Shown piece by piece: positions 28,196-44,719 of a stretch of DNA of 64,000 nt. How positions within the stretch are numbered: the first letter of the stretch is position 1; every line of letters begins with the position of its first letter. This DNA comes from Ruminococcus sp. GTDB taxonomy: Bacteria; Bacillota; Clostridia; Oscillospirales; Ruminococcaceae. The DNA lies in the NCBI GenBank assembly GCA_015066665.1, contig SVNX01000003.1:39074-103073 (forward strand), read 5' to 3'. The translations under genes and the position numbers were made by a program. The notes under the pieces are model-generated. The model searched no databases. It was not told where the DNA came from and saw only the letters and a list, made by a program, of their open reading frames with translations.

Positions 28196-29581
28196 ATGAA
28201 ATTTGATTTGAAGAAAAATGTTTCGGTTCCGGCATGGGGGCTTCTGGTAGGCTTCTGTATTGTGATCCTCTGCCTTTCATTCTCGCTGTTCATGGGCGTG
28301 TACATGCTTACCCATAATCAGCGGGAGAGTGCCGTGCCGAGCGGCAATGTGACTGTGGCTACGGGTGACGGCATGCAGGACGATTCCCAGCAGCCCACCG
28401 GTGAAACCAATCCGCAGGGCGGACTGCTCGGTGTGATCCCCGGCGATGAGACCGACAGCAAGGCACCTGCCGCAGAGGGTACCGATGAGGTGCCCACCGA
28501 CAATACGCCCGTACCCGATGGCAGGGTGGAACAGCTTCTTGCTGAGATGAGCGTCGAGGATAAGGTTTACCAGATGTTCATCGTCACCCCCGAGGCACTC
28601 GTGAACAACGAGGTCAGCTGTGTGACGGTTTCGGGTGAGACCACAAAGAAATATATTGAACAGCGTCCCGTCGGCGGTGTCATCTATTTCACACAGAATC
28701 TGGAGGATACCCAGCAGACCACGGACATGATCTCCAAGCTTCAGGAATATGCCGGTGCCAGCAACGACGGCATCGGACTGTTCATCGCTGTCGATGAAGA
28801 AGGCGGCCGTGTGGCAAGAGCCGCCAGCAAGCTCGGCACCACAAAGCATCCCGCTATGAGCTTCTTCGGTGACGGCAACGATCCGGATGCACCGCAGGCT
28901 GTGTATGATGCAGGTGCGGATATTGCACAGGATATCCGGCAGTTCGGCTTCAATCTGGACTTTGCGCCGGTGGCCGATGTGAACATCGACCCGAATAATG
29001 AGCTGGGCGATCGTATCTTCAGCAGCGATCCGCAGCTTGTCTCCGACCTGAGCGCACAGTTCGTCAAGGGTCTGCAGGACAACGGCGTGAGCGCAACGCT
29101 CAAGCATTTCCCGGGTCTCGGTGCAGCCAATGCCAACACCCACAACAGTTCCTTCGTACGCATCAACCGTACCATTGAGGAGCTGCGTGCCGAAGAGTTC
29201 AAGGCCTTCAAGGGCGGCGTGGATGCCGGTTCGGATTTTGTCATGCTCGGTCATCAGATCGTAAGCGCCGCCGGCGATGAAACACCTTCCTCCATGTCCG
29301 CTGTTGTTGTCGGCGACTGGCTGAGAGGGGAGCTGGGCTATCAGGGCATTATCGTGACCGACGCACAGAATATGGGTGCCATCACACAGGTGTACACATC
29401 CGAGCAGGCCGCTGTGAAGGCCATTCAGGCGGGTGTGGATGTTGTGCTGATGCCTGCAGATTTTCAGAGTGCCTACAACGGCGTGCTCAGTGCTGTCAAG
29501 AACGGCACCATCCCGGAGGAGCGTCTTGATGAGAGCGTCCGCCGCATCCTGACCGTGAAAGAAAAGCATGGCTTAATATAG
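28196..29581 (+). CDS. Glycoside hydrolase family 3 (beta-N-acetylhexosaminidase/NagZ-like), membrane-anchored
   Basis: N-terminal TM, KHFPGLG motif and GIIVTDA (candidate nucleophile Asp). Confidence 0.8.
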   Translation: MKFDLKKNVSVPAWGLLVGFCIVILCLSFSLFMGVYMLTHNQRESAVPSGNVTVATGDGMQDDSQQPTGETNPQGGLLGVIPGDETDSKAPAAEGTDEVPTDNTPVPDGRVEQLLAEMSVEDKVYQMFIVTPEALVNNEVSCVTVSGETTKKYIEQRPVGGVIYFTQNLEDTQQTTDMISKLQEYAGASNDGIGLFIAVDEEGGRVARAASKLGTTKHPAMSFFGDGNDPDAPQAVYDAGADIAQDIRQFGFNLDFAPVADVNIDPNNELGDRIFSSDPQLVSDLSAQFVKGLQDNGVSATLKHFPGLGAANANTHNSSFVRINRTIEELRAEEFKAFKGGVDAGSDFVMLGHQIVSAAGDETPSSMSAVVVGDWLRGELGYQGIIVTDAQNMGAITQVYTSEQAAVKAIQAGVDVVLMPADFQSAYNGVLSAVKNGTIPEERLDESVRRILTVKEKHGLI

Positions 29582-29594
29582 GAGGGAATCGAAT

Positions 29595-30173
29595 ATGGCA
29601 GCAAAAAAGAAACCTGCAAGGAGGGCAGCCGGAGGCGGTGCTGCATCCGCATCCATGGGCGGCGGCCGATCCGCTGTCGCCAGAAGAGCCCTGCAGGAAC
29701 GAAATAAAGGCATTGTCTTCGGACTTGTGGCCGCACTGATCGGCATGCTGGTGATTACCGTGATCATGCTGTTCGGTTTTCAGGGCAAGCTCCCTGTGCT
29801 TGACCGCTGCAATTGCTCGTGGGAAAAGGTGATCGTTTTCTCCGTTGCTGCATTTGCGGCACTGGCACTGCAGACGGTGGGATACCTCATGTATCAGAGC
29901 AAATGTGCCCACTTCAAGACCATTACCAATCCCAGACAGAAGGAGAGATGGAGAAAGCAGCAGATGCCCTTCTTTGTGATGACCACGCTCCTGATTGCGG
30001 TGATTCCGGTAGTGATTGTTTATCTTGTTCTGCCGCTTCTGGTTGATCAGAATGGCAATATGCTCTGGTTTGTACAGCGCGGCATGGGCATTGTCTGCAT
30101 CCTCGTGACATTTGTAGAATCCGGTGCCATCGGCGTTCTGCAAAAAATCATCTTTACAAAAGAAGTCGCATAA
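29595..30173 (+). CDS. Hypothetical polytopic membrane protein with an Arg/Ala-rich N-terminus
   Basis: 4 predicted hydrophobic helices. Starts 13 nt after the GH3 gene. Confidence 0.5.
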   Translation: MAAKKKPARRAAGGGAASASMGGGRSAVARRALQERNKGIVFGLVAALIGMLVITVIMLFGFQGKLPVLDRCNCSWEKVIVFSVAAFAALALQTVGYLMYQSKCAHFKTITNPRQKERWRKQQMPFFVMTTLLIAVIPVVIVYLVLPLLVDQNGNMLWFVQRGMGIVCILVTFVESGAIGVLQKIIFTKEVA

Positions 30174-30188
30174 AAGGAGGGAACGTCA

Positions 30189-30671
30189 ATGGCAAGACGC
30201 AGAAACAGAAACAGAGCCGCTGCACGCAGAGGCCCCCGTACGATATGGAATGCCTATCGCCATAAGGGCGTGTCCAGTATTGTGATCTGCCTGATCCTCT
30301 GGATCATTTACTGTGTGGCAGCATGGTTCCTCATCGGCGAAAAAATGGGCTATTACAGCGGCGAGCTGGATAATTACCTCAAGGAAATCTATTCCGATGA
30401 GCGCTGGAAGCGTACCATCATCAACGGCATCATCCAGTTTCTTCTGATGATCTGGCCGATGTGCGAATATCTCTTTGTATTCCACAGACCTGTGGGTCTG
30501 AAGGATCGCTATAAGTGGTATGTGCCGTTCATTGTGATGATCTGCATTACACTGGCCGTCGTGATTCTGGTCAATGCACTGACGCTCACACTCGGCTGGC
30601 TGACACTGGTACAGATCCTGCTGGCAATGGCTGTCATCATGATCCCCCGCTTTGCTTTCCCGCCCAGATAA
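30189..30671 (+). CDS. Hypothetical polytopic membrane protein with an Arg-rich N-terminus
   Basis: MARRRNRNRAAARRGPR followed by 4 hydrophobic helices. AGGAGGG RBS. Confidence 0.5.
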   Translation: MARRRNRNRAAARRGPRTIWNAYRHKGVSSIVICLILWIIYCVAAWFLIGEKMGYYSGELDNYLKEIYSDERWKRTIINGIIQFLLMIWPMCEYLFVFHRPVGLKDRYKWYVPFIVMICITLAVVILVNALTLTLGWLTLVQILLAMAVIMIPRFAFPPR

Positions 30672-30760: not shown

Positions 30761-32539
30761 GTGATATCCATGAAAAGAATCGAATTCAAGGCGTACGGCG
30801 GTACCGGTACGCTGATCGGAAGGAGCTTTGTGACGCTCATGGCGCTCAATGCCTGCGACCTGGCCGGCAGCGAGCATCAGGACGATGAGTGCGTGATTTA
30901 TCAGCTCGACTACGACGATCAGAGACCCGTCGGCAACACCACAAACGATGCTACCTACTTTAAACATGTCATCAGCTGCTATAACCAGCTGCACAACCGC
31001 GGTCTGAAATTTATCGCACCCATCAGCATGAAGATTGCACCGTACACATTGAAAAATGTCAGAGCGCACGCATACGGTGCCAATGAGGATCTGTACAGCC
31101 TGGAATCCCTGTTCTGCAGCGGCAGAAACAAGCAGGAGATCCGTGAGCTGCTCTCCTCCGCCTTTACCACCGATCCGGAATCCACAACCGAAGAGCTGGA
31201 GCGTTCCAACCGTGACGGCTGCTATGGTGACCTTGCCGTCAACGGCTTCATCAGCAAGAGACTGCTCGTGCGCCGTTCGTTCCATAATGTGGGCATGTAC
31301 AGGGATCTGGCCGGCCGTCTGGATGGTGCACAGGTGTTCTATGCCGGCTCTACCGACGGCGGTACTGCCAATACCATGATCGATAAGGACATTGAGTCCC
31401 TGCTGGACTTTCTTGCAGCAACCGGTGTTGACACCGGACACAATCGTCCCTTCCGCCTGTACGGACTGAGAACCACCCCCTACAGCAAGTTTGAACTGAA
31501 CGGCAACGATGCCGATGTTGCCATCACAGCCCCGATCCTGCGTGATAAGTTCGAAATGTCCAAGGGCGTATTCATGAACATCCAGCGTCAGAATGACAAT
31601 CCGGACAGAGAAAGCTACTACTATCTGGATCCCAACCGCTCCTACTGGCTCGATGGTCTGTTCATCGGTGCAAGCAGCACGCTCGACCTCACCTCCGCCG
31701 AGGCCAAGAAGGATAATCAGTACCACCCGTCCCATCTGGTGGAATTTGCACTGGCACAGCAGGCCATGGATGCCATTGCCGGCCGTCTGCCCCAGCTGCC
31801 CGAGTCCACCCCCCATATCTATGGCTATAACGACAGCGCCGAGGACTTCATCACACTTGACGGTTTCTTCAAGGAGAGCCGTGTGAAGTATTCCTATGAG
31901 GTGCTCACCGACAATAAGCCGCCGGAGTCCACCATTGAACTTTCCAAGTATATCCGTGCCATTCTGCTGACACTGGTGACCATCCGCGGCCAGATGATTG
32001 CTGACTTTGCCAATTATAACGACTGCCCCGACTATGTGGACGATATTTTCCATAAGTGCCATGGTGATGAGCCGACCGTGTGCCCGCTCGTTGCCACAGA
32101 GCTGAAGAAGTTCCTCGATGAATCCAAGTTCATCGTTATGACCTTCATGAACATCATGGAGTATTCCAAGTTCGACCATGGTGCACAGATCGTCCGCTTT
32201 ATGGAAAATGCCATCCAGTATATCTATGATGTGGACAATATGGGCAGACCGATCACCCGTCCGGCAGAACGCACTCTCGCAGTGATCCAGAACGATGCCG
32301 GTACCGATTTTGAAGTGCGCTTTGAGGCATTCCCCGAATTCTGGGCACTCGATGAGATGTCCCGCATCCGCTTTGAACGCGGCGGCGTATTCGGCGGCGG
32401 CAAGCTGAAGAATGAGATGTTCTACCTGAATCATCAGGGTCAGAGTGCACAGGACAGCGCTTCCATCATCGCCAATAACATGATCAAGCGTACATTTGAA
32501 ATGTATCTGTCCGTACTGAATCCCGACGGCGGTTTCTAA
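30761..32539 (+). CDS. Cluster gene A: candidate divergent tubulin/FtsZ-superfamily (Tubulin_2-like) protein
   Basis: N-terminal FKAYGGTGTLIG (T1-like), RDGCYGDLAVNG near residue 155 and FYAGSTDGGTANTMID near residue 198 (T4-like GGT). Alternative ATG start at 30770. Confidence 0.4.
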   Translation: MISMKRIEFKAYGGTGTLIGRSFVTLMALNACDLAGSEHQDDECVIYQLDYDDQRPVGNTTNDATYFKHVISCYNQLHNRGLKFIAPISMKIAPYTLKNVRAHAYGANEDLYSLESLFCSGRNKQEIRELLSSAFTTDPESTTEELERSNRDGCYGDLAVNGFISKRLLVRRSFHNVGMYRDLAGRLDGAQVFYAGSTDGGTANTMIDKDIESLLDFLAATGVDTGHNRPFRLYGLRTTPYSKFELNGNDADVAITAPILRDKFEMSKGVFMNIQRQNDNPDRESYYYLDPNRSYWLDGLFIGASSTLDLTSAEAKKDNQYHPSHLVEFALAQQAMDAIAGRLPQLPESTPHIYGYNDSAEDFITLDGFFKESRVKYSYEVLTDNKPPESTIELSKYIRAILLTLVTIRGQMIADFANYNDCPDYVDDIFHKCHGDEPTVCPLVATELKKFLDESKFIVMTFMNIMEYSKFDHGAQIVRFMENAIQYIYDVDNMGRPITRPAERTLAVIQNDAGTDFEVRFEAFPEFWALDEMSRIRFERGGVFGGGKLKNEMFYLNHQGQSAQDSASIIANNMIKRTFEMYLSVLNPDGGF

Positions 32540-32561: not shown

Positions 32562-35500
32562 ATGAGTTATACATTTCCAGGTCAGCAATTTGCGCAGCCC
32601 GGTACACAGCCGATTGACCTTGTACAGCTGCTGGGCAACCTCCCCGAATGGGGCAAGGCCCTGAAGCTCGGCGTGGCCGGTGCACCTACATACAGAGCGT
32701 TCAATACATCCGCTGCTTACTTTGAATTCATGAACAAGCAGAATCGGGATTTCAGCGACAGTGAAGCCAACGAGTTCATCCTCTCTCCCGACCTGCCCAA
32801 GTTCCAGGATCTCAGAAAATATATGATCATCCTGGCCAATGTCCTGCTGAAGGAATACTGCGATCTGAATCTGGCTGCCAGAAAGATCGACTACATGACC
32901 GTCTGCGATTATGACGGCCAGAACGATGACCTCAAGAAGCTCATCGGTGAATGGGCCAAGGAGATCGATTCCAGAAATAACCGGGATCTCACCGAAATCT
33001 ACATCAAGGTCGACGGCACTGCCTATCCGATTGCCTTCTACTCCGAGACCAAGATGCGTGTGTATCCCTTCAATACCATCAATCGTGTTGCCCTGCAGAA
33101 GCTTCTCGGCTGGGATGAGGAGAAGAAGGACTTCACAATGGAAGCCCTTGCCAAGGATTTCAATGCCCGTCCCACCTCCGACAGAGTGCTCTATGCCGCA
33201 CTCTATGACACCAATGCAGGCCTCACCACCATCAATGCCGCAAAGGCACTGGCACTCTGGCTGACCAGAAACAGAGCCGGCATCCGTATGGAAAACGGTG
33301 CACCCTATCCGATTCAGTGCGTGGAGGTTGTCATCGACGATCAGGTGCAGAGCCTCAATCTGCCCATCCCCGCCATGCCCTACGGCCTGAAGAAGCACAA
33401 TGCCTTCTCCGAGCAGCTGCTGATCATCAAGTCCAATTCCAATGCCAGAAATCATGAGTGCGGCCTGTGCACCATCCCCAACGCCAGCATTGGTATCAAG
33501 GATGCATCCGCACCGGAGCATGCCATCGTACCTCCGCTCAGTGATTATCTGATCGGTCTGATCCGTTCCCAGCAGGTGGAATTCAAGGGTGCTGAAGTGG
33601 CCAAGAACGGCGGCGATTATCAGGCAACCATCCATCTGTGCATCCAGGGTGCGGACTGCAGCTTCACCTGGGACTATGCGGCCGGGGATGTGAGAAAGTG
33701 TGACAACTTCCCGCTGGTATCCGTCCTCAAGTGCCCCAATGAAGCCACCATTGCCCGTCTCTACCGCTGCGACTATGAGCCGGTCGACAGAACACCTGCC
33801 TCCTATCTGGACGGCTATGAGATCAAGCTGGGTCTCGCACAGGGCCATGACAATAATTATGAGCTCCAGTTCAATGTGAATGTCACCGTGAACCAGGATG
33901 AGCTGTATTACTTCGGCGTGCGTTATCACAATTCCGATGAGGGCCGCACCTATTCCTGCGGTTACCTGTTCTATGATAGGGCGCACTCCCTCTACAATGC
34001 CACCAATGCATCCGATTCCACTTCTGTTCTGATCGATGACTCCAACAACATCGCACAGATCGCAGTACTCGATACGGACACCAACAAGGTGAGCGCCTAT
34101 AACGTATACAACGACCGCATCTTCTTCTTCAACCGCAACAGCCGCAATGACTTCGATGCAAGAAACGGCAAGATCTGGGGTGAACCCAATACCACCATCT
34201 TTGAAGTGGCCGGCGGCAGCATGTTTGCACTGGCACCCTTCAGCAGCGAGTTTGCTGACATGGTGGCCAATAAGCAGATCAGACTGACTCGTGCCGACCT
34301 GAAGCAGGACGGCCATAACTGGGAGTTCTTCGTTGAGTTTGAGTACAAACGCAGAAACATGAAGACCAAGACCAGAGTCTACAAGCCCGAGGAGCAGTAC
34401 ACCTCTCCCAATCCGCCCTTCCTGTATGCTGTGCAGACCGTGAATGCCCAGACTGCAAAGCCCGGCTATGATGTCATCATGGTGCAGAATATGCGTGTGG
34501 CAGGCGGCGTGTCCCAGAGCGGCAAGTCCAATGTCCTCGATTCCAACGACCTGCAGTTCCAGATCGGCAAGAAGAGCATTGTTTCCACACTCTTTGTGGA
34601 TCAGCAGGAGCTGGATCAGCACAACCCCAGAACCTATATCAAAATCTACGGCAGCCCCTCCGACGGCAAGCCCTATTATGGTCAGATCTCCCTGCCTCTG
34701 GCATCCTACAGCCTGCTTGACGGTTTCCACGCACTGAAGGATGATTCCACCGACTGTGCCGCCGTTCTGCTCGTGAACAATATGGGTGCCGGCCAGCCCA
34801 AGCAGATCATCACCGGCCGTGTATTCGATGACAATCTCTTCCTGATTGCAAGAGAATCCTCCCGCAGTGCCTACACAGAGTATAAGTCCTGGCGCAACAG
34901 CGGTCTGTTTGTCGATGTGGAAGACATGCCCATGGAGCATCGTGACGGTAAGGAATATGAGGCTATCTTCCCGTTCAGCCTGCAGATGCTGCGTAATCTG
35001 AACAGCGGCAATCTCCAGCTGTCCCAGGGCCACAGACCCGTTGTGAGATATGACCGTGAATCCAAGTGCTACCGTGTGTCCATCTTCATCGAAAAGGGCA
35101 ACGGTGAGCAGGATCCCTTCACCATGTCCTACCGTGAAAGCCAGATCGTCCGCTGTGACAATCTGCCCTTCATCGTGCCGCTGAAGGATAACGAGAACCA
35201 TATGCACATTGTCCGCTTCAACAACGAGGCGCAGCAGCATCTGCGTGACCACGCCGACGGTACCCGCATGATCATCGACTGCATGAACGGCGAGAAGGCT
35301 GTTCCTGTGGAAAAGGAGAAGATCGTGTCGCTCGACGGCAGTAATGTGATTCTGCGTGTGGCTGCCCCCAAGGAGAATGCACAGTGCGTATGCCATGTGC
35401 TGTATCAGGCAGCAGAGCCCTTCGGTGACGGCGTGTATTCCGTGCATTCCGATGCCACCGGTGCACAGCATGTATTCGATTACAATGCCAAGGAAAACCG

Positions 35501-38285
35501 TGTCAGAGAGATCACTGTCTTCACGGATTATATCATGTGGACAAGCCTCTTTGCTGACACCTTCGCAAACGGTACAGAGCCGGTTTCCGTTTCTGACAGA
35601 GGCCGCCGTGATTCCCGTATCTATTCCATCCCGATCACAATGGAATTCTCCCGCCTCATGGAGGAGAGAGGCCTGAAGATTGCGGATTACTCCCATGTCA
35701 AGTACCACACCGATGTGAACGATGTGGACAGCGGCATCACCGACAGCAATGCCGATCTCTATGTCACCATCAGTCTCACCGGCCTGAAGGGCGGATCGTC
35801 CACCGTTCAGAAGTGCTTCGATAAGAGCCACATCGTCGGCTTCGGCCGTTACCCGCTGCCGACACTGACGGTATTCCCGTTTGTGAATTTCGTGGCCAAC
35901 CATACTTATGGCGAAAAGCTGCGCGGCAAGAGCCTCTGGCAGCAGTATTCCTACGCCAAGTTCACAAAGGAAACCGAAACCGCAGAACGTGACAGCAATG
36001 CCCGTACCGAGGCACTCGGTGCCCGTGTTGAGTTCTGGATCAACGGCAAGAAGGTTGAGTTCCAGAAGAGAAGCACCAAGATCATGGACTCCATGGAGGT
36101 CAATGAGCAGACCCGTATGGAAGTTGCCAAGGTTTCCGGATGGGGTCACTACATCCATATGAAGTACGATGGATCCAATACAGTTGCTCCCACAAAGCCC
36201 GTGGACAGCCAGTGGAACGGCAAGGAGCTCGGCTGCATCATCATGAAGCCGGCGCCTACCAAGGAGGTCGATTCCACCCGCAATGCCACTGTCGGTGTGG
36301 ACTTCGGTACCAGAAATTCCATCGTGGCCATCTATCCCGACGGCGTGACAGCTGTGAGCTTCCCGTACCACGGTCATCAGGAGCTGCAGAAGATCGTCAT
36401 CCCCGGCATGGATGATGTCGCCTTCAAGGATTTCTCCAACCTGAGCTATATTCCGCACTTTGACGGCAGAGCCGATATGGGCGTGGGCTGCGGTAAGTTC
36501 GCTTCCACCGTTATGGCCTACTCCGTTGTTGAAGCTGCCAATGAAGTGCTCACTCCCTATGACCGTGGCTTCGTGCCCAATGTACAGGGCGACGTGCTCA
36601 AGAGAATCATGAACCGCATGACCCGTCCCGGTTCCATGGCCGACCTGCTCGGCTTCTACAGCGATCTGAAGATCTCCACAAGTGCAGATACTGCCGATCC
36701 GAATCTGATCCGCATCATGGACCGCAATGTGCGTCTGTTCATCAAGAGCGTTATGTTCCATACCGCACTCAACTGCTATCAGGCAGGCTGCGGCAAGATC
36801 AATGTCCGCTTCTCCGTACCGTCCGAGATGTTCGTCAAGAATCTCAAGCCCGTATGGCTCGAGGCACAGAAATATATCGATTCCTACTTCCCCGAGCAGG
36901 CACGAGGCAATATCACCGTGGGTGAGTATGCAACCGAGGCCAAGGCCCTGTTCAAGCATCTGAGCAGCAATATGAACGGCACACCGCCCAAGTATTCTGC
37001 CATCACCGACGGCGGTGACGGTACCTATGACTTCACCATCAACAAGCTCGTCGGCAACCAGCTGACCAATCCCAATGCCTTCTCCCTGCGTTATGCCGGT
37101 CAGCAGATCATGACCGATAGCGTGAATGCCTTCTATGACCATCTGGTACGCCGCAACGGCGGTCAGCGCAGTGAGGAAGTCAAGTCCGTCTTCAGAGGCC
37201 TCTGGAAGTCCGGTGACGGCTCCGAGGCTGTGCTGGAAACCCGTGAGCAGCTGATCACGCAGCTCTCCGATTACCGCAATATCCCCGGCGGCACCGACCG
37301 TGAACGTGAGAAGACCATGGTGCTGATGCTCGTTGAGCAGTTCGGCATCGACTGCCAGAAGCTGCGCAACCCCAATGCCCGCAACCTGATGCAGATCGTG
37401 ACCCCCGAATATACCAACTTCGTCAGAATGATCCAGTACAAGTTCCTGTTCCTCTTCAACGTACTGGGTGAACAGATCCGCAAGAATATCCGTCTGGAAG
37501 AGGACGATGTGACAAGCTTCAACATCTACCTCTACGGCGGTACCGCACAGGCACTGACCATTGCAGAACCGCTCTGTCAGGGCAATCTGGCCGTATACGG
37601 CAGCCCCGGTGCCGGCAACCTGCCCATGGTGGTCTTCATTGATGCAATGCTGGATCTGCCGAGAAATGTCAACGGCGAAAAGATCATCCTCAAGTTCATC
37701 CCCGCAAAGGACTCTGAGAAGCGTGAGATCGCAAGCGGTCTGATCGCAATGCAGAGAACCGAGCTGCATAACTTCAATGTGGATGGCGGCCAGAATGTGG
37801 AGATCCCGAGCTTTGCCGGTGCAGCCCCCGCTGCTCAGCAGCAGGAACCCGCAGAAGGCGGATTCGGTGATTTCTTCAGCGGATTCGGCAATATGGGCGG
37901 CATGGGCTTCGATATGAATCCCGCACCGCAGCCCGCAGCCCCCGGTATGGATACGGGCGCAGAGAGAAACGCCAGAAAGCCCAGAACGCTCGATGGCTTC
38001 ATCGACAGCCTCAAGGAAGTACTCTGCAACCGTACCGTAGAGCTGCCGCAGGGTGAGTATTCCATCGACAACTTCCTGCCCTTCATGGACGAGAACGGCC
38101 AGCCCATCTACCTGTCCCGCATTCTCGATGATCAGATTGTCAGAAATGCAATGCTCTCCGAGCTCACAACACTGTGGAATACCGTATGCACTGAGAACAG
38201 CGACATCGACGATCCCGATATGCTCTACCATATCTACACACTGAAGATGGTAGGCCTTGCCATTGAGGCATATCTCAGAAAGTAA
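32562..38285 (+). CDS. Cluster gene B: 1907-aa giant protein with a C-terminal actin/Hsp70-like (ASKHA) ATPase domain
   Basis: GAAGGAG RBS. Ordered motifs VGVDFGTRNSIVA (phosphate 1), RFSVPS, YATEAKA, ITDGGDGTYDFTI (phosphate 2) and IYLYGGTAQ (adenosine). The N-terminal ~1230 aa have no recognised domain. Confidence 0.7.
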   Translation: MSYTFPGQQFAQPGTQPIDLVQLLGNLPEWGKALKLGVAGAPTYRAFNTSAAYFEFMNKQNRDFSDSEANEFILSPDLPKFQDLRKYMIILANVLLKEYCDLNLAARKIDYMTVCDYDGQNDDLKKLIGEWAKEIDSRNNRDLTEIYIKVDGTAYPIAFYSETKMRVYPFNTINRVALQKLLGWDEEKKDFTMEALAKDFNARPTSDRVLYAALYDTNAGLTTINAAKALALWLTRNRAGIRMENGAPYPIQCVEVVIDDQVQSLNLPIPAMPYGLKKHNAFSEQLLIIKSNSNARNHECGLCTIPNASIGIKDASAPEHAIVPPLSDYLIGLIRSQQVEFKGAEVAKNGGDYQATIHLCIQGADCSFTWDYAAGDVRKCDNFPLVSVLKCPNEATIARLYRCDYEPVDRTPASYLDGYEIKLGLAQGHDNNYELQFNVNVTVNQDELYYFGVRYHNSDEGRTYSCGYLFYDRAHSLYNATNASDSTSVLIDDSNNIAQIAVLDTDTNKVSAYNVYNDRIFFFNRNSRNDFDARNGKIWGEPNTTIFEVAGGSMFALAPFSSEFADMVANKQIRLTRADLKQDGHNWEFFVEFEYKRRNMKTKTRVYKPEEQYTSPNPPFLYAVQTVNAQTAKPGYDVIMVQNMRVAGGVSQSGKSNVLDSNDLQFQIGKKSIVSTLFVDQQELDQHNPRTYIKIYGSPSDGKPYYGQISLPLASYSLLDGFHALKDDSTDCAAVLLVNNMGAGQPKQIITGRVFDDNLFLIARESSRSAYTEYKSWRNSGLFVDVEDMPMEHRDGKEYEAIFPFSLQMLRNLNSGNLQLSQGHRPVVRYDRESKCYRVSIFIEKGNGEQDPFTMSYRESQIVRCDNLPFIVPLKDNENHMHIVRFNNEAQQHLRDHADGTRMIIDCMNGEKAVPVEKEKIVSLDGSNVILRVAAPKENAQCVCHVLYQAAEPFGDGVYSVHSDATGAQHVFDYNAKENRVREITVFTDYIMWTSLFADTFANGTEPVSVSDRGRRDSRIYSIPITMEFSRLMEERGLKIADYSHVKYHTDVNDVDSGITDSNADLYVTISLTGLKGGSSTVQKCFDKSHIVGFGRYPLPTLTVFPFVNFVANHTYGEKLRGKSLWQQYSYAKFTKETETAERDSNARTEALGARVEFWINGKKVEFQKRSTKIMDSMEVNEQTRMEVAKVSGWGHYIHMKYDGSNTVAPTKPVDSQWNGKELGCIIMKPAPTKEVDSTRNATVGVDFGTRNSIVAIYPDGVTAVSFPYHGHQELQKIVIPGMDDVAFKDFSNLSYIPHFDGRADMGVGCGKFASTVMAYSVVEAANEVLTPYDRGFVPNVQGDVLKRIMNRMTRPGSMADLLGFYSDLKISTSADTADPNLIRIMDRNVRLFIKSVMFHTALNCYQAGCGKINVRFSVPSEMFVKNLKPVWLEAQKYIDSYFPEQARGNITVGEYATEAKALFKHLSSNMNGTPPKYSAITDGGDGTYDFTINKLVGNQLTNPNAFSLRYAGQQIMTDSVNAFYDHLVRRNGGQRSEEVKSVFRGLWKSGDGSEAVLETREQLITQLSDYRNIPGGTDREREKTMVLMLVEQFGIDCQKLRNPNARNLMQIVTPEYTNFVRMIQYKFLFLFNVLGEQIRKNIRLEEDDVTSFNIYLYGGTAQALTIAEPLCQGNLAVYGSPGAGNLPMVVFIDAMLDLPRNVNGEKIILKFIPAKDSEKREIASGLIAMQRTELHNFNVDGGQNVEIPSFAGAAPAAQQQEPAEGGFGDFFSGFGNMGGMGFDMNPAPQPAAPGMDTGAERNARKPRTLDGFIDSLKEVLCNRTVELPQGEYSIDNFLPFMDENGQPIYLSRILDDQIVRNAMLSELTTLWNTVCTENSDIDDPDMLYHIYTLKMVGLAIEAYLRK

Positions 38286-38420: not shown

Positions 38421-39836
38421 ATGAACGCAGAAAGCGTGACACTGAACATTGCCGGCGAAGAAATGCCCGGCGCCTGGGCGGCAGGGGCAACCTATGCCAT
38501 CACCAGAGCCAATACGCCGTTTCTGCTGATCGTGGCAGAACGTGAGGATGCATTTCTGGACGCCATTCTGTATCAGAAGGGCGGTGCCGGACTGCTGGCA
38601 CAGGTCAAAATCCCCATGCAGATGATGCAGTGCCTGACGGATAAGCTGACGGGTGCATTCATGCAGCAGATTCTTCTGCGGCAGAAGCATGCACCGACGC
38701 GTGTGAATGAAGTGCTGCGTGATTTTTCCGCACTCTTCCGCCGGTCTCCCGAGGCGCAGCAGCTGTTTCAGCAGCTGGCAGGCATTGTCACAGCCGATCC
38801 GAATCAGCTGACGTTTTCCGGCATTCAGCCGGTCTTCCGCAAGCTGGTGCAGACCTGCGAGCTTGAGCCCGTCATGTATCCCCAGATCCTTCGGAAAAGG
38901 GGCATCGAAAATACAATGATGCAGCTCTATGCGGCCTCTTTGACAGAATGGAATCAGCTGACAGCCCTGCTTCGTGATTTTCTGCGCAGGCAGGCCGTCT
39001 GGCTGAATGAACCGAATGCCGATCTGCAGATCCATTTCTGCGGCAGTATCCGTAAGCTGGCCGTACTGGCCGAGCCCTCTGCCGTGCACAAGTCCACGAT
39101 ACAGATGAATCAGAACAGCCGTGACATGCTCTATGGCATGACCATGGAAATGCTCCGTGTACCTGAAAAACAAACGCCGTGGCGGATGCAGATGGCTATT
39201 TATGCCGGAGATTACGAAAAAATGATGCTGGAAGGCTATCACAATTTCCAGGCGAGAACGGCCGGTGCGCAGAATGCGGAAACCCATCCGGCAAACGTCC
39301 GTGTTTTCCACGATACTGTGCTCTCGCTGCCGGCGGAGTTTGGCATCTATGCAGGCAGTGTACAGGGGAGAAAGCTTCCTGTGAACGGCAGCCTCGTGCA
39401 GACCTCACCGCTTGACGGCAGTCTTTTGATTGCTCCCTTTTCTGATGCATTTTCGACCCTGATTGCGCAGGGCAAGGTCACTGTACAGAACATGCAGTGG
39501 ACGGCCGAGGGCGACAATCTGCAGTTCACCGTGGAATTCACCCATGAGGGACGCAGCATCCGTCCGGCACCGCGTATCTATACACCACAGGATGTGTGCC
39601 GTGTAACGACACCCCCTGAACTGATTTTGTTCCGCACGCCGGGCACCTCCGGGATGCATGTGCGGATGGAGAATACCACCATGCAGGCTGCACTTTACGG
39701 CGGCATCCGGCGAGGAAAGGCTGTTCAGGCGCAGGCCGGCATGTATCGGTATTATTTTAAACTGTATCGGGATGATGCATTCCTTGGGCAGTTCGATTAT
39801 CTCCTGGCGAAAGGAGTGAGTGCAGGCAATGAATGA
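38421..39836 (+). CDS. Cluster gene C: hypothetical protein sharing a ~75-aa module with giant protein B
   Basis: [20 protein letters not shown]...[26 protein letters not shown] aligns with ALAPFSSEFADMVANKQIRL...WEFFVEFEYKRRNMKTKTRVYKPEEQ in B. Confidence 0.6.
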
Positions 39837-41544
39837 TGAGAATCAGATGGGTTTTAACCCGTGGGGCATGGATTTCGGTGACCTCGGCGAACCCGTGAAA
39901 AAGAAAACGTCCCCGCCGGCACCGCAGCCCAGCCCCGAACCGGAAGCAGAAGCCCTTCCCGAAATCCCGAATTTCTTCGGCGGCTTCGGCGATCTCGGCG
40001 AGCCTGTGAAGAAGGCCGAACCGAAACCGGAACCCAAGCCGGAACCCGAGCCAACGCCCGAACCGGAAGCAGAAGCCCTTCCCGAAATCCCGAATTTCTT
40101 CGGCGGCTTCGGCGATCTCGGCGAGCCTGTGAAGAAGGCCGAACCGAAACCGGAACCCAAGCCCGAGCCGAGCCCCGAACCGGAAGCAGAAGCCCTTCCC
40201 GAAATCCCGAATTTCTTCGGCGGCTTCGGCGATCTCGGGGAGCCTGTGAAGAAGGCCGAACCGAAACCGGAACCCAAGCCCGAACCCGAGCCGACGCCTG
40301 AACCGGAAGCAGAAGCTCTTCCCGAAATCCCGAATTTCTTCGGCGGCTTCGGCGATCTCGGGGAGCCTGTGAAGAAGGCCGAACCGAAACCGGAATCCAA
40401 GCCGGAACCCGAGCCGACGCCTGAACCGGAAGCAGAAGCCCTTCCCGAAATTCCGAATTTCTTCGGCGGTTTCGGCGATCTCGGCGAGCCTGTGAAGAAG
40501 GCCGAACCGAAACCGGAACCCAAGCCCGAACCCGAGCCGACGCCCGAACCGGAAGCAGAAGCCCTTCCCGAAATCCCGAATTTCTTCGGCGTCTTCGGCG
40601 ACCTCGGCGAGCCTGTGAAGAAGGCCGAACCGAAACCGGAACCCAAGCCGGAACCCGAGCCGACGCCTGAACCGGAAGCAGAAGCTCTTCCCGAAATTCC
40701 GAATTTCTTCGGCGGCTTCGGCGATCTCGGTGAGCCTGTGAAGAAGGCTGAACCGAACCCGGAACCCAAGCCTGAACCCGAACCGAGCCTCGAACCGGAA
40801 GCAGAAGCCCTTCCCGAAATCCCGAATTTCTTCGGCGGCTTCGGCGATCTCGGCGAGCCTGTGAAGAAGGCCGAACCGAAACCGGAACCCAAGCCCGAAC
40901 CCGAGCCGACGCCCGAACCGGAAGCTGCTGCTATGGATGAGTGCACAGGCACGGAGGATGTACAGGAAGAACCGGCTGTCGGCTTTGATACACCTTTTGC
41001 TGCAGAAACGGAGGAAGCCCCTGCATCTCCCGCCCTCCCGGATGCACCGGACGAGGCGGATCTGGCCTTGTTTGACGCAGCGGAGACGGAAGAACCCGTC
41101 GGGGAAGAAGCTTCAGTCTGGGATGATGCGGTCATGGAGCCGTGCTATGATTCCGATGAAATCACCGCAGCACTGCCGGACAAGGATCCCTACTGCCGAC
41201 TGACTGTGCCCGCCGTTTCGGAGGATGCCCTCTGGAAGGCAGAATGCCGCAGTGCCATGCCGGCCGACGGCGAAGCCATGCTCGAAAGCGTGCTGCAATG
41301 GATGCAGGGAAGTGAGAAGGTCTTCCATTATCCGAGAATCCCGCTGGGTGACCGCGGATGGAGTGTGGAGGAGATTCTGAAGCATCCGGCTGTCCGCAGC
41401 GAAATCACCCGCAGCGGTGCCAAGCTCTGGGAGGAAACCATCCGCCAGTCCGAGACGGGAACCGCACCCGACTGGATTCGTCTGGCATGGAACCGCAAAA
41501 TGATGCAGCATGCGGTGGACTACTTCATGATCTGTATGCGATAA
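39829..41544 (+). CDS. Cluster gene D: FG-motif / PEPK-spacer tandem-repeat protein with a globular C-terminal domain
   Basis: 9 [10 protein letters not shown] motifs, 8 of them preceded by [14 protein letters not shown] is 12 nt after an AAGGAG RBS and overlaps the end of gene C by 8 nt. Confidence 0.7.
39874..40926 (+). repeat. In-frame tandem repeat: 8 full copies of 123 bp (one is 117 bp) plus a partial first copy
   Basis: Copy starts measured at 39961, 40084, 40201, 40324, 40447, 40570, 40693 and 40816. Only scattered substitutions between copies. Confidence 0.95.
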
Positions 41545-41573
41545 AAATAAATAGGAATAGGAGGAGATTTGAT

Positions 41574-43145: not shown

Positions 43146-43178
43146 AATCAAATAACATGATACGGAGAAGAGGATGCT

Positions 43179-44621: not shown

Positions 44622-44719
44622 TATCCCCCTGCGGTGCAGGGTACAAATCGTTACGGAAAATGGCCATGCTGCGTCGTGGCCATGCCGTAGCGCATTTTGC
44701 ATTTATGGAGTGCTGATAT

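What the first reader, a model, noticed from the sequence alone, without database searches (positions are those of the whole stretch)
32562..38285. 1907-aa giant protein: ~1230 aa of unassignable sequence fused to a complete actin/Hsp70-type ATPase motif set and an FG-rich tail
Seen in sequence: the five ASKHA motifs occur in canonical order.
- Phosphate 1: ATVGVDFGTRNSIVAIYPDG (nt 36285-36345).
- RFSVPS.
- YATEAKA, at the position of the Hsp70 E-P-x-A-A motif.
- Phosphate 2: ITDGGDGTYDFTI (nt 37000-37040).
- Adenosine: IYLYGGTAQ (nt 37524-37550).

This is followed by AAPAAQQQEPAEGGFGDFFSGFGNMGGMGFDM (nt 37855-37920) and a ~110-aa terminal domain.

Established knowledge: this motif set defines the sugar kinase/Hsp70/actin superfamily.

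Inference: the protein is either a filament-forming actin-like domain or a chaperone-like ATPase, embedded in a very large scaffold. It sits next to a tubulin-like gene. A single bacterial operon pairing both cytoskeletal NTPase folds is not a combination I recognise.
Basis: partly seen in the sequence, partly recalled or inferred. Interest (0 to 1): 0.8.

Follow-up and report, generated by a model that had tools for sequence, protein, structure and literature searches.

The report
Giant actin-fold ATPase with tubulin partner
This is a real 1,907-residue bacterial protein whose rear third is an actin/Hsp70-fold ATPase, encoded directly after a tubulin-like gene; it is an enlarged member of an unnamed gene module found in hundreds of bacterial species, and no one has tested what the module does (probably a membrane-linked defence or remodelling machine).

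Summary
ORF 32562-38285 (+) is one conserved gene, with nine full-length orthologues at 45-58% identity in Oscillospiraceae/Ruminococcus.

**Architecture**
- Residues ~1241-1750 carry all ASKHA (actin/Hsp70/sugar-kinase) motifs. The predicted fold matches only Hsp70-NBD, MreB and actin structures.
- The "unassignable" N-terminus resolves into a ~320-aa α/β domain with no detectable structural relative, plus four tandem ~220-245-aa β-rich repeats.
- The tail is an FG-rich linker plus a ~107-aa domain, also found in a neighbouring FG-repeat protein.

**Partner gene.** The upstream 592-aa gene is a divergent Tubulin_2 (FtsZl1) relative.

**Wider family**
- The pair is not unique. The giant is an expanded form of an unannotated ~1,100-aa family (N-domain, one repeat, ASKHA).
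- In 70 of 72 testable loci, this family lies immediately downstream of the tubulin-like gene.
- The tubulin-like gene occurs in at least 570 species genomes. The listed loci are mostly Bacteroidota, with some Firmicutes; copies also sit on cyanobacterial plasmids.
- Canonical loci add MotA/MotB (ZorAB)-like proteins and proteases, and one adds DO-GTPase/GAP1. The window has pseudokinase–lectin and coiled-coil membrane proteins instead.

**Interpretation.** The best reading is an NTP-driven, membrane-proximal assembly of the FtsZl1 / "GTPase-centric conflict system" kind. That kind is predicted computationally only and has not been tested. I rate it a new variant of a known kind, with moderate-to-high interest.

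The parts
32562..38285 (+). Giant gene, 1,907 aa: N-domain, four repeats, ASKHA ATPase, FG linker, C-terminal domain
   Evidence: ORF and translation. Nine full-length orthologues at 45-58% identity. No TM segment. Strongest codon bias in the window, Nc 36.7.
32562..33527 (+). N-terminal α/β domain (residues 1-322)
   Evidence: AF2 pLDDT is mostly above 85. No significant Foldseek match in PDB or BFVD. Homologous to the N-terminus of the ~1,100-1,250-aa relatives (HMM E down to 1e-15).
33528..34229 (+). Repeat R1 (residues 323-556), β-rich
   Evidence: hhalign self-comparison gives 271-577 vs 744-1042 at probability 96%, E 2.8e-9. AF2 shows mostly β-strands. The only Foldseek resemblance is weak, to tandem FNIII/Ig pairs (best E 5.5e-3, prob 0.3).
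34230..34967 (+). Repeat R2 (residues 557-802)
   Evidence: hhalign gives 312-625 vs 546-875 at probability 92%, E 8.4e-7. Its first ~70 residues recur in the downstream 471-aa protein (blastp 1e-7, HMM 8e-17).
34968..35624 (+). Repeat R3 (residues 803-1021)
   Evidence: hhalign self-alignment.
35625..36281 (+). Repeat R4 (residues 1022-1240), abutting the ATPase
   Evidence: The R3-R4 junction (~1022-1042) aligns with the R1-R2 junction in the hhalign self-comparison. The motif PTLTVFPFVNF...LWQQYSYAKF corresponds to SxWPYV...WKxYY just before the ATPase in the wider family. The split-gene variant P0010 ends at about residue 1215, inside this repeat's tail.
36282..37811 (+). ASKHA (actin/Hsp70-fold) ATPase domain (residues ~1241-1750). 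P1 has D1247, E1459 is present, P2 is D1483-G-G-D-G-T (actin-like GDG), and the adenosine motif is G1659-G-T.
   Evidence: Motifs are invariant in the nine orthologues that have this region. The Foldseek top 50 are all Hsp70, MreB or actin. The profile links to ~60 ASKHA-motif proteins and, weakly, to MreB, FtsA, BeeR, EutJ and HscA models. A ~130-residue conserved insert in lobe I (about residues 1250-1377) is not modelled confidently.
37812..37961 (+). FG/Gly/Pro-rich linker (residues ~1751-1800), predicted disordered
   Evidence: pLDDT below 30. Length and sequence vary among orthologues, but it is always F/G-rich.
37962..38285 (+). C-terminal ~107-aa domain (residues 1801-1907) plus stop
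   Evidence: pLDDT ~85-94, mainly helical. The last 60 residues align with the C-terminus of the FG-repeat protein (hhalign probability 83%, E 1e-5).
30761..32539 (+). Partner gene: divergent tubulin/FtsZ-like protein (592 aa; the true start is probably 3 codons in). It has invariant GGTG (T1-like) and S-x-DGGTANT (T4-like) motifs.
   Evidence: 29 homologues, none with a Pfam hit. The profile matches a Pfam Tubulin_2 protein of locus L005 (hhalign 96.9%, E 1.9e-10; HMM 35.6 bits). It ends 22 nt before the giant gene. Nc is 37.4.
26398..28152 (+). 584-aa lipoprotein-like component (LTACG lipobox)
   Evidence: Sequence. Conserved position in L001, L003 and L006. Linked through L5_594 to family f3 of the canonical loci.
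28196..29581 (+). Membrane-anchored GH3 (NagZ-type) glycosidase, conserved in the giant-type loci
   Evidence: Pfam Glyco_hydro_3 E 5e-81. N-terminal TM. Synteny in L001-L004.
29595..30671 (+). Two small multi-TM proteins (192 aa and 160 aa) just upstream of the tubulin-like gene
   Evidence: 4-5 hydrophobic segments each. Conserved position.
38421..39836 (+). 471-aa cytoplasmic protein carrying one copy of the giant's repeat core
   Evidence: blastp 1e-7 and R2-HMM 8e-17. Orthologue in L001.
39820..41544 (+). 574-aa FG-repeat protein (8 x 41-aa units containing [11 protein letters not shown]) with a C-terminal domain like the giant's
   Evidence: Translation. 123-nt tandem repeat at 39934-40925. 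C-terminal similarity.
41358..46258 (+). Three coiled-coil proteins (595, 480 and 512 aa). The first two have one TM and a shared C-terminal domain.
   Evidence: Paralogy. TM segments. The C-terminal domain is homologous to the gene that follows the ASKHA gene in canonical loci (families f6, f9, f10). The start of the first ORF is uncertain because it overlaps the previous gene.
46289..51626 (+). Three paralogous kinase-like proteins with degenerate catalytic motifs (HGH for HRD). The third has a TM and an external C-type lectin domain.
   Evidence: Pfam Pkinase matches the C-lobe only (E 1e-8 to 1e-10); Lectin_C E 1.8e-7. TM at 461-479. Motif reading.
51553..52749 (+). Membrane-anchored DUF5050 β-propeller protein. 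This domain is fused to the kinase-like protein in L001.
   Evidence: Pfam E 1e-38. The L001 846-aa fusion.

Best explanation
**What it is.** The gene encodes the actin/Hsp70-fold (ASKHA) ATPase subunit of a conserved multi-gene module. The module core is: a secreted or lipoprotein component, small membrane protein(s), a cytoplasmic tubulin/FtsZ-like protein, a large protein built as N-domain + β-rich repeat + ASKHA ATPase, and a membrane/coiled-coil protein.

**How this copy differs.** The window's protein is a lineage-specific enlargement of the usual ~1,100-aa form.
- Its repeat has been quadruplicated.
- An FG-rich disordered linker and a small C-terminal domain, shared with an FG-repeat partner protein, have been added.

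**Proposed mechanism (inferred).**
- The non-enzymatic N-domain and repeats are binding or sensor surfaces.
- ATP binding and hydrolysis in the ASKHA domain, together with the tubulin-like partner, drive nucleotide-dependent assembly or switching of a higher-order complex. The complex forms at the inner face of the membrane.
- That complex is coupled to the cell envelope through the membrane partners. In canonical loci these are MotA/MotB-like stator proteins and proteases. Here they are coiled-coil membrane proteins and pseudokinase-lectin proteins.

**Likely role.** The system is of the FtsZl1 / "GTPase-centric conflict system" kind. It is most probably a response to invaders or to envelope damage, not a division or shape cytoskeleton.

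**Shown versus inferred.**
- Shown: the gene is real, its domain architecture, its ASKHA fold class, and its fixed pairing with the tubulin-like gene.
- Inferred: ATPase activity, co-assembly, and the defence or remodelling role.
For: **Gene and architecture**
- Real, conserved gene.
- A natural split just upstream of the ASKHA domain.
- ASKHA fold and motifs.
- Repeat architecture and a confident model of residues 1-556.
- The wider family has the N-domain, one repeat and the ASKHA domain.

**Pairing with the tubulin-like gene**
- The tubulin-like assignment of the neighbour.
- The pairing is seen in every locus type examined: L001, L003, L005-L009 and L013.
- It holds in 70 of 72 testable loci from a survey. 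In that survey at least 570 of the pattern-matched stretches in the 185,579 species genomes encode a relative of the tubulin-like protein.
- Gene order is fixed, f3-f2-tubulin-ASKHA, in 75-80 of 80 loci.
- The window's 595-aa and 480-aa proteins are homologous to the gene that follows the ASKHA gene elsewhere.

**Conflict-system flavour**
- DO-GTPase2 and a weak GAP1-M hit in L005.
- ZorA/ZorB-like pair, Asp protease and SNase beside a type I R-M, Fic and PDDEXK genes in Cellulophaga.
- Retropepsin-like and trypsin-like proteases in 20 and 18 of 80 loci.
- Integrases at the left edge of L003 and L006.
- A TIR-domain gene about 3 kb upstream of the module in L009.
- Plasmid-borne copies.

**Membrane coupling and cytoplasmic NTPases**
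- TM map.

**Literature frame**
- PMC2875224.
- PMC7159879.
Against: - No activity, interaction or phenotype has been tested for any member.
- The window's own locus lacks DO-GTPase, GAP1, MotAB-like genes, proteases and nucleases.
- The window's locus sits beside housekeeping genes (fab operon, polA, tsaD).
- PADLOC has no model that matches the tubulin-like or ASKHA proteins.
- MotAB/OmpA-like pairs also serve non-defence envelope functions.
- The giant and its tubulin-like partner have the strongest codon bias in the window (Nc 36.7 and 37.4, versus 40-46 for the other long (>=200-codon) genes scored). That fits abundant structural proteins better than a rare sensor.
- Lobe I of the ASKHA model is low-confidence.
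- The T4-like loop of the window's tubulin-like protein is altered (GGTANT instead of GGTGAS), so GTP binding is uncertain.
Confidence: 0.5

Rival explanations
1. It is a housekeeping cytoskeletal or cell-envelope morphogenesis system. The tubulin-like protein and the ASKHA protein would act like FtsZ and FtsA (or MreB). They would position wall-remodelling enzymes, such as the linked GH3 glycosidase, lectin and β-propeller ectodomains, in these Oscillospiraceae.
For: - The ftsA-ftsZ adjacency is a direct analogue.
- A conserved GH3 gene and extracytoplasmic carbohydrate-binding domains lie in the giant-type loci.
- The chromosomal flank is housekeeping.
- The two NTPase genes have the strongest codon bias in the window.
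- A single promoter-like site sits upstream of a long, terminator-poor gene array.
Against: - Distribution is sporadic. The survey found at least 570 relatives among 185,579 species genomes, and only 10 giant-type proteins exist among 5.8 billion sequences.
- Accessory genes are variable and effector-like.
- Integrases, IS elements, R-M systems and plasmids occur in the contexts.
Confidence: 0.2
2. The ASKHA domain is a non-polymerising, Hsp70-type conformational switch or chaperone. It would load, unfold or threshold partner proteins (the tubulin-like protein, the FG-repeat protein). This is what Kaur et al. propose for HSP70 components of GTPase-centric systems.
For: - The top Foldseek hit is mortalin NBD.
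- Some relatives hit HscA and DnaK models.
- Hsp70-like VP(S/A) and TEAxA motifs are present.
- An FG/Gly-rich tail follows the domain.
- Literature precedent for HSP70 domains without a peptide-binding domain.
Against: - No Hsp70 substrate-binding domain is present, and no DnaJ or GrpE gene is in any locus seen.
- The phosphate-2 loop is actin-like (GDG).
- More relatives hit MreB, FtsA and BeeR than Hsp70 models.
- Profile matches to DnaK, MreB and FtsA are equal and local.
Confidence: 0.15
3. It is a SrfABC-like secreted or vesicle-borne toxin complex. The giant would be the SrfB-like subunit, and the pseudokinase-TM-ectodomain proteins would be SrfA-like platforms.
For: - One of 42 relatives hits Pfam SrfB at E 0.0025.
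- SrfA is described as pseudokinase + TM + ectodomain, flanked by vWA and FGE (C-type-lectin-fold) genes.
- The window's three kinase-like proteins have a comparable layout.
Against: - The SrfB hit is a single sub-threshold match.
- The window protein has no SrfB hit.
- No SrfC-like gene was found.
- The giant has no signal peptide or TM segment.
- The last profile search returned no SrfB-annotated protein.
Confidence: 0.05
4. It is an artefact: a mis-assembled or read-through fusion of several genes, or the real gene is the 2,275-aa ORF on the opposite strand.
For: - A split form (1,222 aa + 639 aa) exists in two assemblies.
- A longer antisense ORF exists.
Against: - Nine independent full-length orthologues have end-to-end conservation.
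- The antisense frame is open only because TTA, CTA and TCA codons are almost absent from this genome (4, 0 and 17 of 9,644 codons).
- The antisense frame is closed in the orthologous loci, where the longest runs are 115 and 127 codons.
Confidence: 0.01

Closest known systems
FtsZl1 (Pfam Tubulin_2, PF13809) operons of Makarova & Koonin 2010 (PMC2875224)
   Same: - A divergent tubulin/FtsZ-like gene sits at the centre of a multi-gene, membrane-associated array.
- The frame [~450-aa protein][~110-150-aa protein][tubulin-like][...][MotA/TolQ/ExbB][OmpA-like] in Deinococcus matches the canonical loci found here.
- Ser/Thr-kinase genes are frequent neighbours.
- One listed neighbourhood (M. magneticum) holds a 1,626-aa COG0443/HSP70 protein.
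   Different: - Typical FtsZl1 proteins are ~1,000-1,100 aa, with a coiled coil and an α-helical C-terminal part. Here the tubulin-like protein is ~465-600 aa and is followed by a separate large ASKHA protein.
- No vWA gene and no P-loop GTPase were found in the window.
- The ASKHA partner is not discussed in that paper.
- The function ("membrane remodelling") is a prediction only.
DO-GTPase/GAP1-N2 'GTPase-centric' conflict systems with tubulin, HSP70 or kinase themes (Kaur, Burroughs, Iyer & Aravind 2020, PMC7159879)
   Same: - They combine tubulin-superfamily and HSP70-superfamily NTPases, FNIII-type repeat proteins, kinases and membrane-proximal components.
- A relative of the giant (L005) sits in an operon with DO-GTPase2 and a weak GAP1-M match.
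- The β-rich repeats in the giant resemble tandem FNIII only weakly.
   Different: - The window has no DO-GTPase or GAP1, which are the defining core pair.
- That paper presents the tubulin, HSP70 and kinase themes as non-overlapping. Here all three kinds of component occur together.
- Its HSP70 components are bona fide HSP70 with GrpE or DnaJ, unlike this family.
FtsA-FtsZ pair of the division (dcw) cluster
   Same: An actin-fold ATPase and a tubulin-fold GTPase are encoded side by side. In the division system, the actin-fold protein tethers the tubulin-fold polymer to the membrane (established knowledge; gene adjacency seen).
   Different: - Gene order is reversed.
- There is no significant sequence match of either protein to FtsA or FtsZ beyond the nucleotide-binding loops.
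- The ASKHA protein is 3-5 times larger.
- Distribution is sporadic, and the locus is not part of a dcw cluster.
Zorya anti-phage systems (ZorA/ZorB plus effectors)
   Same: Canonical loci of the module carry a MotA-like protein with a long coiled coil and a MotB/OmpA-like protein. These hit ZorA/ZorB models (E 9e-6 and 2.7e-10). Proteases or a nuclease follow them.
   Different: - There are no ZorC/D/E/F/G matches.
- The window's own locus has no MotAB-like pair.
- PADLOC holds only defence models, so any MotAB relative would hit ZorAB.
Hsp70 (DnaK/HscA) and actin-like MreB/FtsA/BeeR/EutJ families
   Same: They share the ASKHA two-lobe fold and five nucleotide-binding motifs. The structural matches are to exactly these proteins.
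   Different: - No family model reaches its threshold for the window protein.
- A ~130-residue conserved insert lies in lobe I.
- There is no Hsp70 substrate-binding domain.
- About 1,240 residues of unrelated sequence precede the domain.

Membership tests
ASKHA (acetate/sugar kinase-Hsp70-actin) superfamily | Five nucleotide-binding motifs (phosphate 1, connect 1, phosphate 2, adenosine, connect 2) in canonical order | tested here: met
   DFGTRNS (D1247), VPS, TEA (E1459), DGGDGTYD (D1483) and YGGT (G1659) are all invariant in the nine orthologues that have this region. The same motifs are conserved in ~60 distant relatives.
ASKHA (acetate/sugar kinase-Hsp70-actin) superfamily | Two RNase-H-like lobes flanking the nucleotide cleft | tested here: met
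   The Foldseek top 50 PDB matches are all Hsp70 NBD, MreB, actin or Arp (best E 3.9e-4). Caveat: the model's mean pLDDT is 63.6, an insert in lobe I is below 50, and TM-scores are low.
ASKHA (acetate/sugar kinase-Hsp70-actin) superfamily | ATP binding and hydrolysis | not testable with these tools
   Only motif integrity can be shown.
Hsp70 family (DnaK/HscA) | Significant match of the NBD to Hsp70 family models | tested here: not met
   There is no Pfam or NCBIfam hit for the window protein. Only 2-3 of 42 relatives hit HscA or DnaK, at E 5e-4 to 0.09. The hhalign match to DnaK covers 29 columns around phosphate 2.
Hsp70 family (DnaK/HscA) | C-terminal substrate-binding β-sandwich and helical lid, with DnaJ/GrpE partners | tested here: not met
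   The ATPase is followed by a disordered FG-rich linker and a ~107-aa, mostly helical domain. No DnaJ or GrpE gene is in any locus.
Actin-like filament formers (MreB, FtsA, ParM, MamK, BeeR) | Family-level sequence membership | tested here: inconclusive
   Relatives hit MreB (10/42), FtsA (6/42), BeeR (5/42) and MamK (2/42) far below their cut-offs. The window protein itself has no hit. hhalign to MreB gives E 1.1e-5 over 55 columns only.
Actin-like filament formers (MreB, FtsA, ParM, MamK, BeeR) | Nucleotide-dependent polymerisation | not testable with these tools
   Needs purified protein, or at least multimer modelling.
Tubulin/FtsZ superfamily (for the 592-aa neighbour) | Match to a tubulin-superfamily model, with the T1 (GGxG) and T4 (GGGTG[ST]G) loops | tested here: met
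   The match is indirect. There is no Pfam hit for the window protein. Its 29-sequence profile matches the L005 protein (hhalign 96.9%, E 1.9e-10). That protein hits Tubulin_2 at E 1.1e-11 (above cut-off) and Tubulin at 1.8e-4. The T1-like GGTG is invariant. The T4-like loop is GGTGAS in canonical members but GGTANT here. A direct comparison with E. coli FtsZ is not significant.
DO-GTPase/GAP1 conflict systems (Kaur et al. 2020) | Presence of the DO-GTPase and GAP1 core pair | tested here: not met
   Neither is in the window (Pfam; tblastn best E 0.3-0.7). They are present, with GAP1-M weak, beside a relative in L005.
FtsZl1-centred operons (Makarova & Koonin 2010) | FtsZl1/Tubulin_2 gene with vWA, divergent GTPase, OmpA-like and/or kinase genes | tested here: inconclusive
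   A tubulin_2 relative and kinase-like genes are present. vWA, GTPase and OmpA-like genes are absent from the window. MotA-like and OmpA-like genes are present in 47 and 38 of 80 canonical loci.
SrfB (PF07520) | Match to the SrfB model | tested here: not met
   The window protein has no hit. One of 42 relatives hits at E 0.0025, below any cut-off.

The most novel reading that the evidence does not exclude
The tubulin-like protein and the large ASKHA protein form an obligate two-NTPase machine: a composite GTP- and ATP-driven polymer or ring at the membrane. This machine would be a previously unrecognised prokaryotic cytoskeleton-type immune or envelope-surveillance device, triggered through MotAB-like or coiled-coil membrane sensors. 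In Oscillospiraceae it would have been elaborated into a giant multivalent scaffold, with four sensor repeats and FG-rich tails that drive condensate-like clustering with an FG-repeat partner.
Probability: 0.2. Interest if true: 0.85.

Novelty: new variant of a known kind. Interest (0 to 1): 0.62.

Why it matters
- **An unnamed family.** The ~1,100-1,900-aa ASKHA proteins matched no model in the Pfam, NCBIfam or PADLOC libraries searched here. They are nevertheless locked to a tubulin-like gene in at least several hundred species, including gut Bacteroides, Parabacteroides and Prevotella.
- **A testable handle on old predictions.** Only two comparative-genomics papers touch the surrounding kind of system, and neither defines this pair. 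A fixed five-gene core with two cytoskeletal-fold NTPases gives a concrete system for testing what FtsZl1-type "membrane remodelling" or "conflict" systems actually do. It would also show whether bacteria use actin-fold and tubulin-fold proteins together outside cell division.
- **Domain evolution.** The window's giant form shows how such a subunit grows, by quadruplicating a repeat and gaining an FG-rich tail.
- **A new fold candidate.** The ~320-aa N-domain has no detectable structural relative in PDB or BFVD.

Tried and rejected
- **Direct annotation found nothing.** Pfam, NCBIfam and PADLOC scans, a PDB sequence search, and a profile search of PDB gave no hit apart from a chance FliJ match.
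- **Phages.** There is no homologue of the ASKHA part in the phage collection.
- **Fold of residues 1-556.** Despite a good model (pLDDT 83), Foldseek found no match with E below 1e-3 in PDB or BFVD. Only weak FNIII/Ig-pair resemblances appeared, which I do not treat as an assignment.
- **Hsp70 versus actin-like.** hhalign against E. coli DnaK, MreB and FtsA gave equal, local phosphate-2 matches, so the clade is unresolved.
- **Direct FtsZ link for the 592-aa protein.** Not significant. Only the transitive route through Tubulin_2 works.
- **SrfB lead.** It came from one weak Pfam hit. The last deep profile search returned only 9 proteins and none was SrfB-annotated. The lead could not be tested further and is kept as a low-probability rival.
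- **DO-GTPase/GAP1 in the window.** Searched by tblastn and not found.
- **Walker-A-like strings in the giant (residues 649 and 1117).** The first is not conserved, both lie in the β-rich repeat region, and I rejected them as P-loops.
- **Antisense 2,275-aa ORF.** Rejected as a gene.
- **First genome survey attempt.** The broad tubulin-like alignment had no conserved stretch to search with. A narrower alignment worked. It is therefore biased towards the canonical (Bacteroidota-type) subfamily.

Full report
**1. The observation**

ORF 32562-38285 on the + strand encodes 1,907 residues of ordinary, non-repetitive composition.

The gene is real. A search of 5.8 billion proteins returned ten relatives:
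- a 99%-identical copy;
- eight full-length orthologues of 1,892-1,936 aa at 45-57% identity, from Ruminococcus and Oscillospiraceae assemblies;
- a 1,222-aa protein that stops just before the ATPase part.

The alignment is conserved end to end, with mean column identity 57%.

In two assemblies the gene is naturally split into a 1,222-aa ORF and a 639-aa ORF, 33 nt apart. The second ORF starts just before the phosphate-1 motif. This marks a true domain boundary and rules out a chimeric assembly.

The longer ORF on the opposite strand (32484-39311, 2,275 aa) is a shadow.
- This genome almost never uses TTA, CTA or TCA: 4, 0 and 17 of 9,644 codons, and none in the giant gene. The codon-aligned antisense frame therefore has no stops.
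- In orthologous loci the same frame closes after 115-127 codons.

**2. The ATPase domain**

No family library and no PDB sequence search recognises the protein. Three independent lines still place residues ~1241-1750 in the ASKHA superfamily.

- *Structure.* An AlphaFold2 model of residues 1216-1907 has mean pLDDT 63.6. Lobe II and the C-terminal domain are well modelled. A ~130-residue conserved insert in lobe I is not. Foldseek matches are exclusively Hsp70 nucleotide-binding domains, MreB, actin and Arp2/3 through the top 50. The E-values are modest (best 3.9e-4) and the TM-scores low.
- *Relatives.* A profile search of 1.84 billion representative proteins found 72 relatives. About 60 are 1,000-1,450-aa proteins in which the matching region is the C-terminal half. 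Their consensus shows textbook motifs: AIDFGTxNT, SYP, TEAxA, DIGGGTxDxS, YAG and IxLxGGG.
- *Family models.* Those relatives, scanned one by one, hit MreB (10 of 42), FtsA (6), BeeR (5), EutJ (5), HscA, MamK, DnaK and ParM models at E 1e-5 to 1e-2. They hit nothing unrelated with any consistency.

In the giant orthologues the phosphate-2 loop reads D-G-G-D-G-T, the actin-type GDG variant (my own knowledge of the actin motif). All catalytic-site positions are invariant.

Whether the domain is nearer Hsp70 or the actin-like filament formers could not be settled. Profile comparison with E. coli DnaK, MreB and FtsA gives similar, short matches around phosphate 2 (E 5e-5, 1e-5 and 3e-5). The FtsZ control gives none.

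It is not an Hsp70 in the family sense. There is no substrate-binding domain and no DnaJ or GrpE gene nearby.

**3. The "unassignable" 1,230 residues**

A profile self-comparison shows tandem repeats:
- residues 271-577 align with 744-1042 (probability 96%, E 2.8e-9);
- residues 312-625 align with 546-875 (probability 92%, E 8.4e-7).

Taking the conserved "PFS" helix as the start, the units are 323-556, 557-802, 803-1021 and 1022-1240. The last unit runs straight into the ATPase.

The ~1,100-aa relatives have the same N-terminal domain (HMM E down to 1e-15) and a single repeat before the ATPase. The giant is therefore this architecture with the repeat quadruplicated.

I modelled residues 1-556 with 24 homologous N-terminal regions, and the model is confident (pLDDT 83.4, pTM 0.70). 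It shows an α/β N-domain followed by a mostly β repeat.

Neither PDB nor the viral structure library gives a match with E below 1e-3. The best resemblances are to tandem FNIII/Ig pairs such as the gp130 cytokine-binding region (E 5.5e-3, probability 0.3). I regard these as a hint, not an assignment.

**4. Tail**

Residues ~1751-1800 are F/G/P-rich and predicted to be disordered. Residues 1801-1907 form a well-predicted small domain.

The last 60 residues align with the C-terminus of the neighbouring 574-aa protein (hhalign probability 83%, E 1e-5). The body of that protein is eight 41-residue repeats, each containing [11 protein letters not shown]. They are encoded by a 123-nt tandem DNA repeat.

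The downstream 471-aa protein carries one copy of the giant's repeat core. The giant thus shares modules with both downstream neighbours.

**5. The tubulin-like neighbour**

The 592-aa protein ends 22 nt before the giant gene. It has no Pfam hit.

The link to tubulin/FtsZ runs in two steps:
- A 29-sequence profile of its family matches the protein encoded directly upstream of a giant relative in a Clostridium contig, locus L005 (hhalign probability 96.9%, E 1.9e-10 over 287 columns; HMM 35.6 bits).
- That protein hits Pfam Tubulin_2 at E 1.1e-11, above the curated cut-off, and Tubulin/FtsZ at 1.8e-4.

The N-terminal GGTG and a T4-like loop are invariant. The loop reads GGTGAS in canonical members and GGTANT in the window's clade. 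A direct comparison with E. coli FtsZ is not significant.

**6. The pair is a fixed module**

Every locus I could inspect has the tubulin-like gene directly upstream of the ASKHA gene. These are L001, L003 and L005-L009, plus a Picosynechococcus plasmid. In each, the pair is preceded by a ~410-600-aa secreted or lipoprotein-like gene and one or two small membrane proteins.

It returned 600 pattern matches, of which 570 encode relatives. The listed loci are mostly Bacteroidota, with Leptospiraceae, Sulfuricurvum and several Firmicutes.

Among the best 80 loci:
- 72 have at least 3.3 kb of sequence downstream;
- in 70 of those, the next ORF matches the ASKHA-family HMM;
- 66 of those are intact ORFs of at least 900 aa, and across all 80 loci the ASKHA-family ORFs have a median length of 1,132 aa.

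Clustering of all neighbours gives this order:

| Position | Family | Size | Loci (of 80) | Identity |
|---|---|---|---|---|
| 1 | f3 | ~440 aa | 75 | secreted/lipoprotein-like |
| 2 | f2 | ~147 aa | 78 | small membrane protein |
| 3 | tubulin-like | ~485 aa | 80 | Tubulin_2 relative |
| 4 | ASKHA | ~1,132 aa | 79 | this family |
| 5 | f6, f9 or f10 | ~300-400 aa | f6: 34 | no Pfam match (f10 coiled coil); related to the window's TM/coiled-coil proteins |
| later | f4 | ~537 aa | 47 | coiled-coil, MotA/ZorA-like |
| later | f5 | ~217 aa | 38 | OmpA/MotB/ZorB-like |
| later | f7 | ~182 aa | 20 | retropepsin-like protease |
| later | f8 | ~253 aa | 18 | trypsin-like protease |

The window's 595-aa and 480-aa membrane/coiled-coil proteins are homologous, through their C-terminal domain, to the gene at position 5. 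The window therefore keeps a five-component core.

It lacks the MotAB-like pair and the proteases. In their place it has a GH3 glycosidase, three kinase-like proteins and a DUF5050 propeller. The kinase-like proteins have degenerate catalytic motifs, and one carries an external C-type lectin domain.

**7. What it most likely does**

All five cytoplasmic proteins (tubulin-like, giant, 471-aa, FG-repeat, 512-aa coiled coil) lack TM segments. They are bracketed by membrane and extracytoplasmic proteins. The genes are tightly packed behind one good promoter-like site at 25503-25531, with no convincing internal terminator.

Contexts of relatives point to a conflict system:
- DO-GTPase2 plus a weak GAP1-M match in L005;
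- a type I R-M, Fic and PDDEXK genes upstream, and a ZorAB-like pair, Asp protease and SNase downstream, in Cellulophaga;
- integrases at the left edge of L003 and L006;
- a TIR gene about 3 kb upstream of the module in L009;
- plasmid-borne copies.

This matches two computational descriptions.
- The FtsZl1 "membrane-remodelling" operons (PMC2875224). The supplement shows the same gene frame in Deinococcus and a 1,626-aa HSP70-domain neighbour in Magnetospirillum.
- The GTPase-centric conflict systems with tubulin, HSP70 and kinase themes (PMC7159879).

I therefore propose the following.
- The giant is the ATP-driven subunit of a membrane-proximal, two-NTPase assembly. Its N-domain and repeats are binding or sensor surfaces.
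- The system responds to invaders or to envelope perturbation.

Points against this reading:
- nothing has been tested experimentally;
- the window's locus lacks recognisable effectors and sits among housekeeping genes;
- the giant and its partner have the strongest codon bias in the window (Nc 36.7 and 37.4, versus 40-46 for the other long (>=200-codon) genes scored), which would suit abundant structural proteins.

A housekeeping cytoskeletal or wall-remodelling role is the main rival. A chaperone-type switch is the main mechanistic alternative.

**8. Novelty and verdict**

The protein family has no name and matches no model in the family libraries searched here. The N-domain has no detectable structural relative in PDB or BFVD. 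The tight tubulin-like/ASKHA pairing across hundreds of species is not described in the literature I could search.

The kind of system it belongs to has been outlined twice by comparative genomics. Pairing of the two folds is also familiar from ftsA-ftsZ. I therefore rate it a new variant of a known, so far only predicted, kind. Interest is 0.62.

Noticed in passing
window 32484-39311 (- strand), and most other long genes in the window: Very long antisense ORFs shadow the real genes: 2,275 aa opposite the giant, 815 aa opposite polA, 570 aa opposite the tubulin-like gene. The cause is near-total avoidance of TTA, CTA and TCA codons (4, 0 and 17 of 9,644). Orthologous loci in other species do not share the open antisense frame.
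   Followed up: yes
window 30761-38285: The tubulin-like gene and the giant gene have the lowest effective number of codons in the window (37.4 and 36.7, versus 40-46 for the other long (>=200-codon) genes scored). The giant uses CTT for only 5 of 144 Leu codons. This may mean high expression, but no ribosomal-protein reference set was available in the window to calibrate it.
   Followed up: partly
window 39934-40925: A 123-nt tandem DNA repeat (8.1 copies, 93% matches) encodes 41-aa units ([41 protein letters not shown]) of the 574-aa protein. NCBIfam reports a spurious PorACj hit on the repeat.
   Followed up: partly
window 46289-51626: Three tandem paralogues have a protein-kinase C-lobe match but HGH in place of HRD and no DFG, so they are predicted pseudokinases. 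Each is followed by a coiled coil. The third has a TM helix and an extracellular C-type lectin domain. In L001 the equivalent single gene is fused to the DUF5050 propeller. This layout resembles what a 2026 preprint describes for SrfA.
   Followed up: partly
L003 10001-15622 and L004 6846-12467: A split-gene form of the giant (1,222 aa + 639 aa, 33-nt gap) occurs in two assemblies of one lineage. The break lies just upstream of the ASKHA domain.
   Followed up: yes
L008 (Cellulophaga algicola CP002453.1, 924856-948209): The canonical module (493, 134, 464 tubulin-like and 1,117 ASKHA = Celal_0824) lies between a type I R-M/Fic/PDDEXK block and ISL3 transposases. A ZorA/ZorB-like pair, an Asp protease and an SNase nuclease follow it. 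This organism is cultivable and has known phages (my own knowledge), so it is a good experimental entry point.
   Followed up: partly
window 56231-57910 (- strand) and 56000-64000: A large serine recombinase (Resolvase + Recombinase + Zn ribbon + DUF4368) sits at the start of a stretch where G+C falls from ~55% to 36-47%. This is probably an integrated mobile element to the right of the cluster.
   Followed up: partly
window 14945-24299 (- strand): An ordinary fatty-acid synthesis operon (FabH, FabK-type NMO, FabD, FabG, FabF, AccD/AccA) and an acyl-CoA ligase. The + strand ORFs listed there are shadows.
   Followed up: yes
protein P0054: A 7,652-aa protein matches positions 485-533 of the ASKHA-region profile in 14 separate stretches (E 8.7e-8). 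This looks like a short repeated motif, not an ASKHA domain.
   Followed up: no
window 41358-41544: The 595-aa ORF overlaps the end of the FG-repeat gene by 186 nt, and its first ~115 codons look non-coding-like. The true start is probably further downstream.
   Followed up: no
residues ~1250-1377 of the giant (window ~36309-36692): A ~130-residue insert in lobe I of the ATPase is among the most conserved stretches of the protein (FPYHG, SNLSYIPHF, GCGKFAS, PYDxGFVPNVQG). AlphaFold2 nevertheless gives pLDDT below 50. It may be a family-specific interface, for example for the tubulin-like partner.
   Followed up: no
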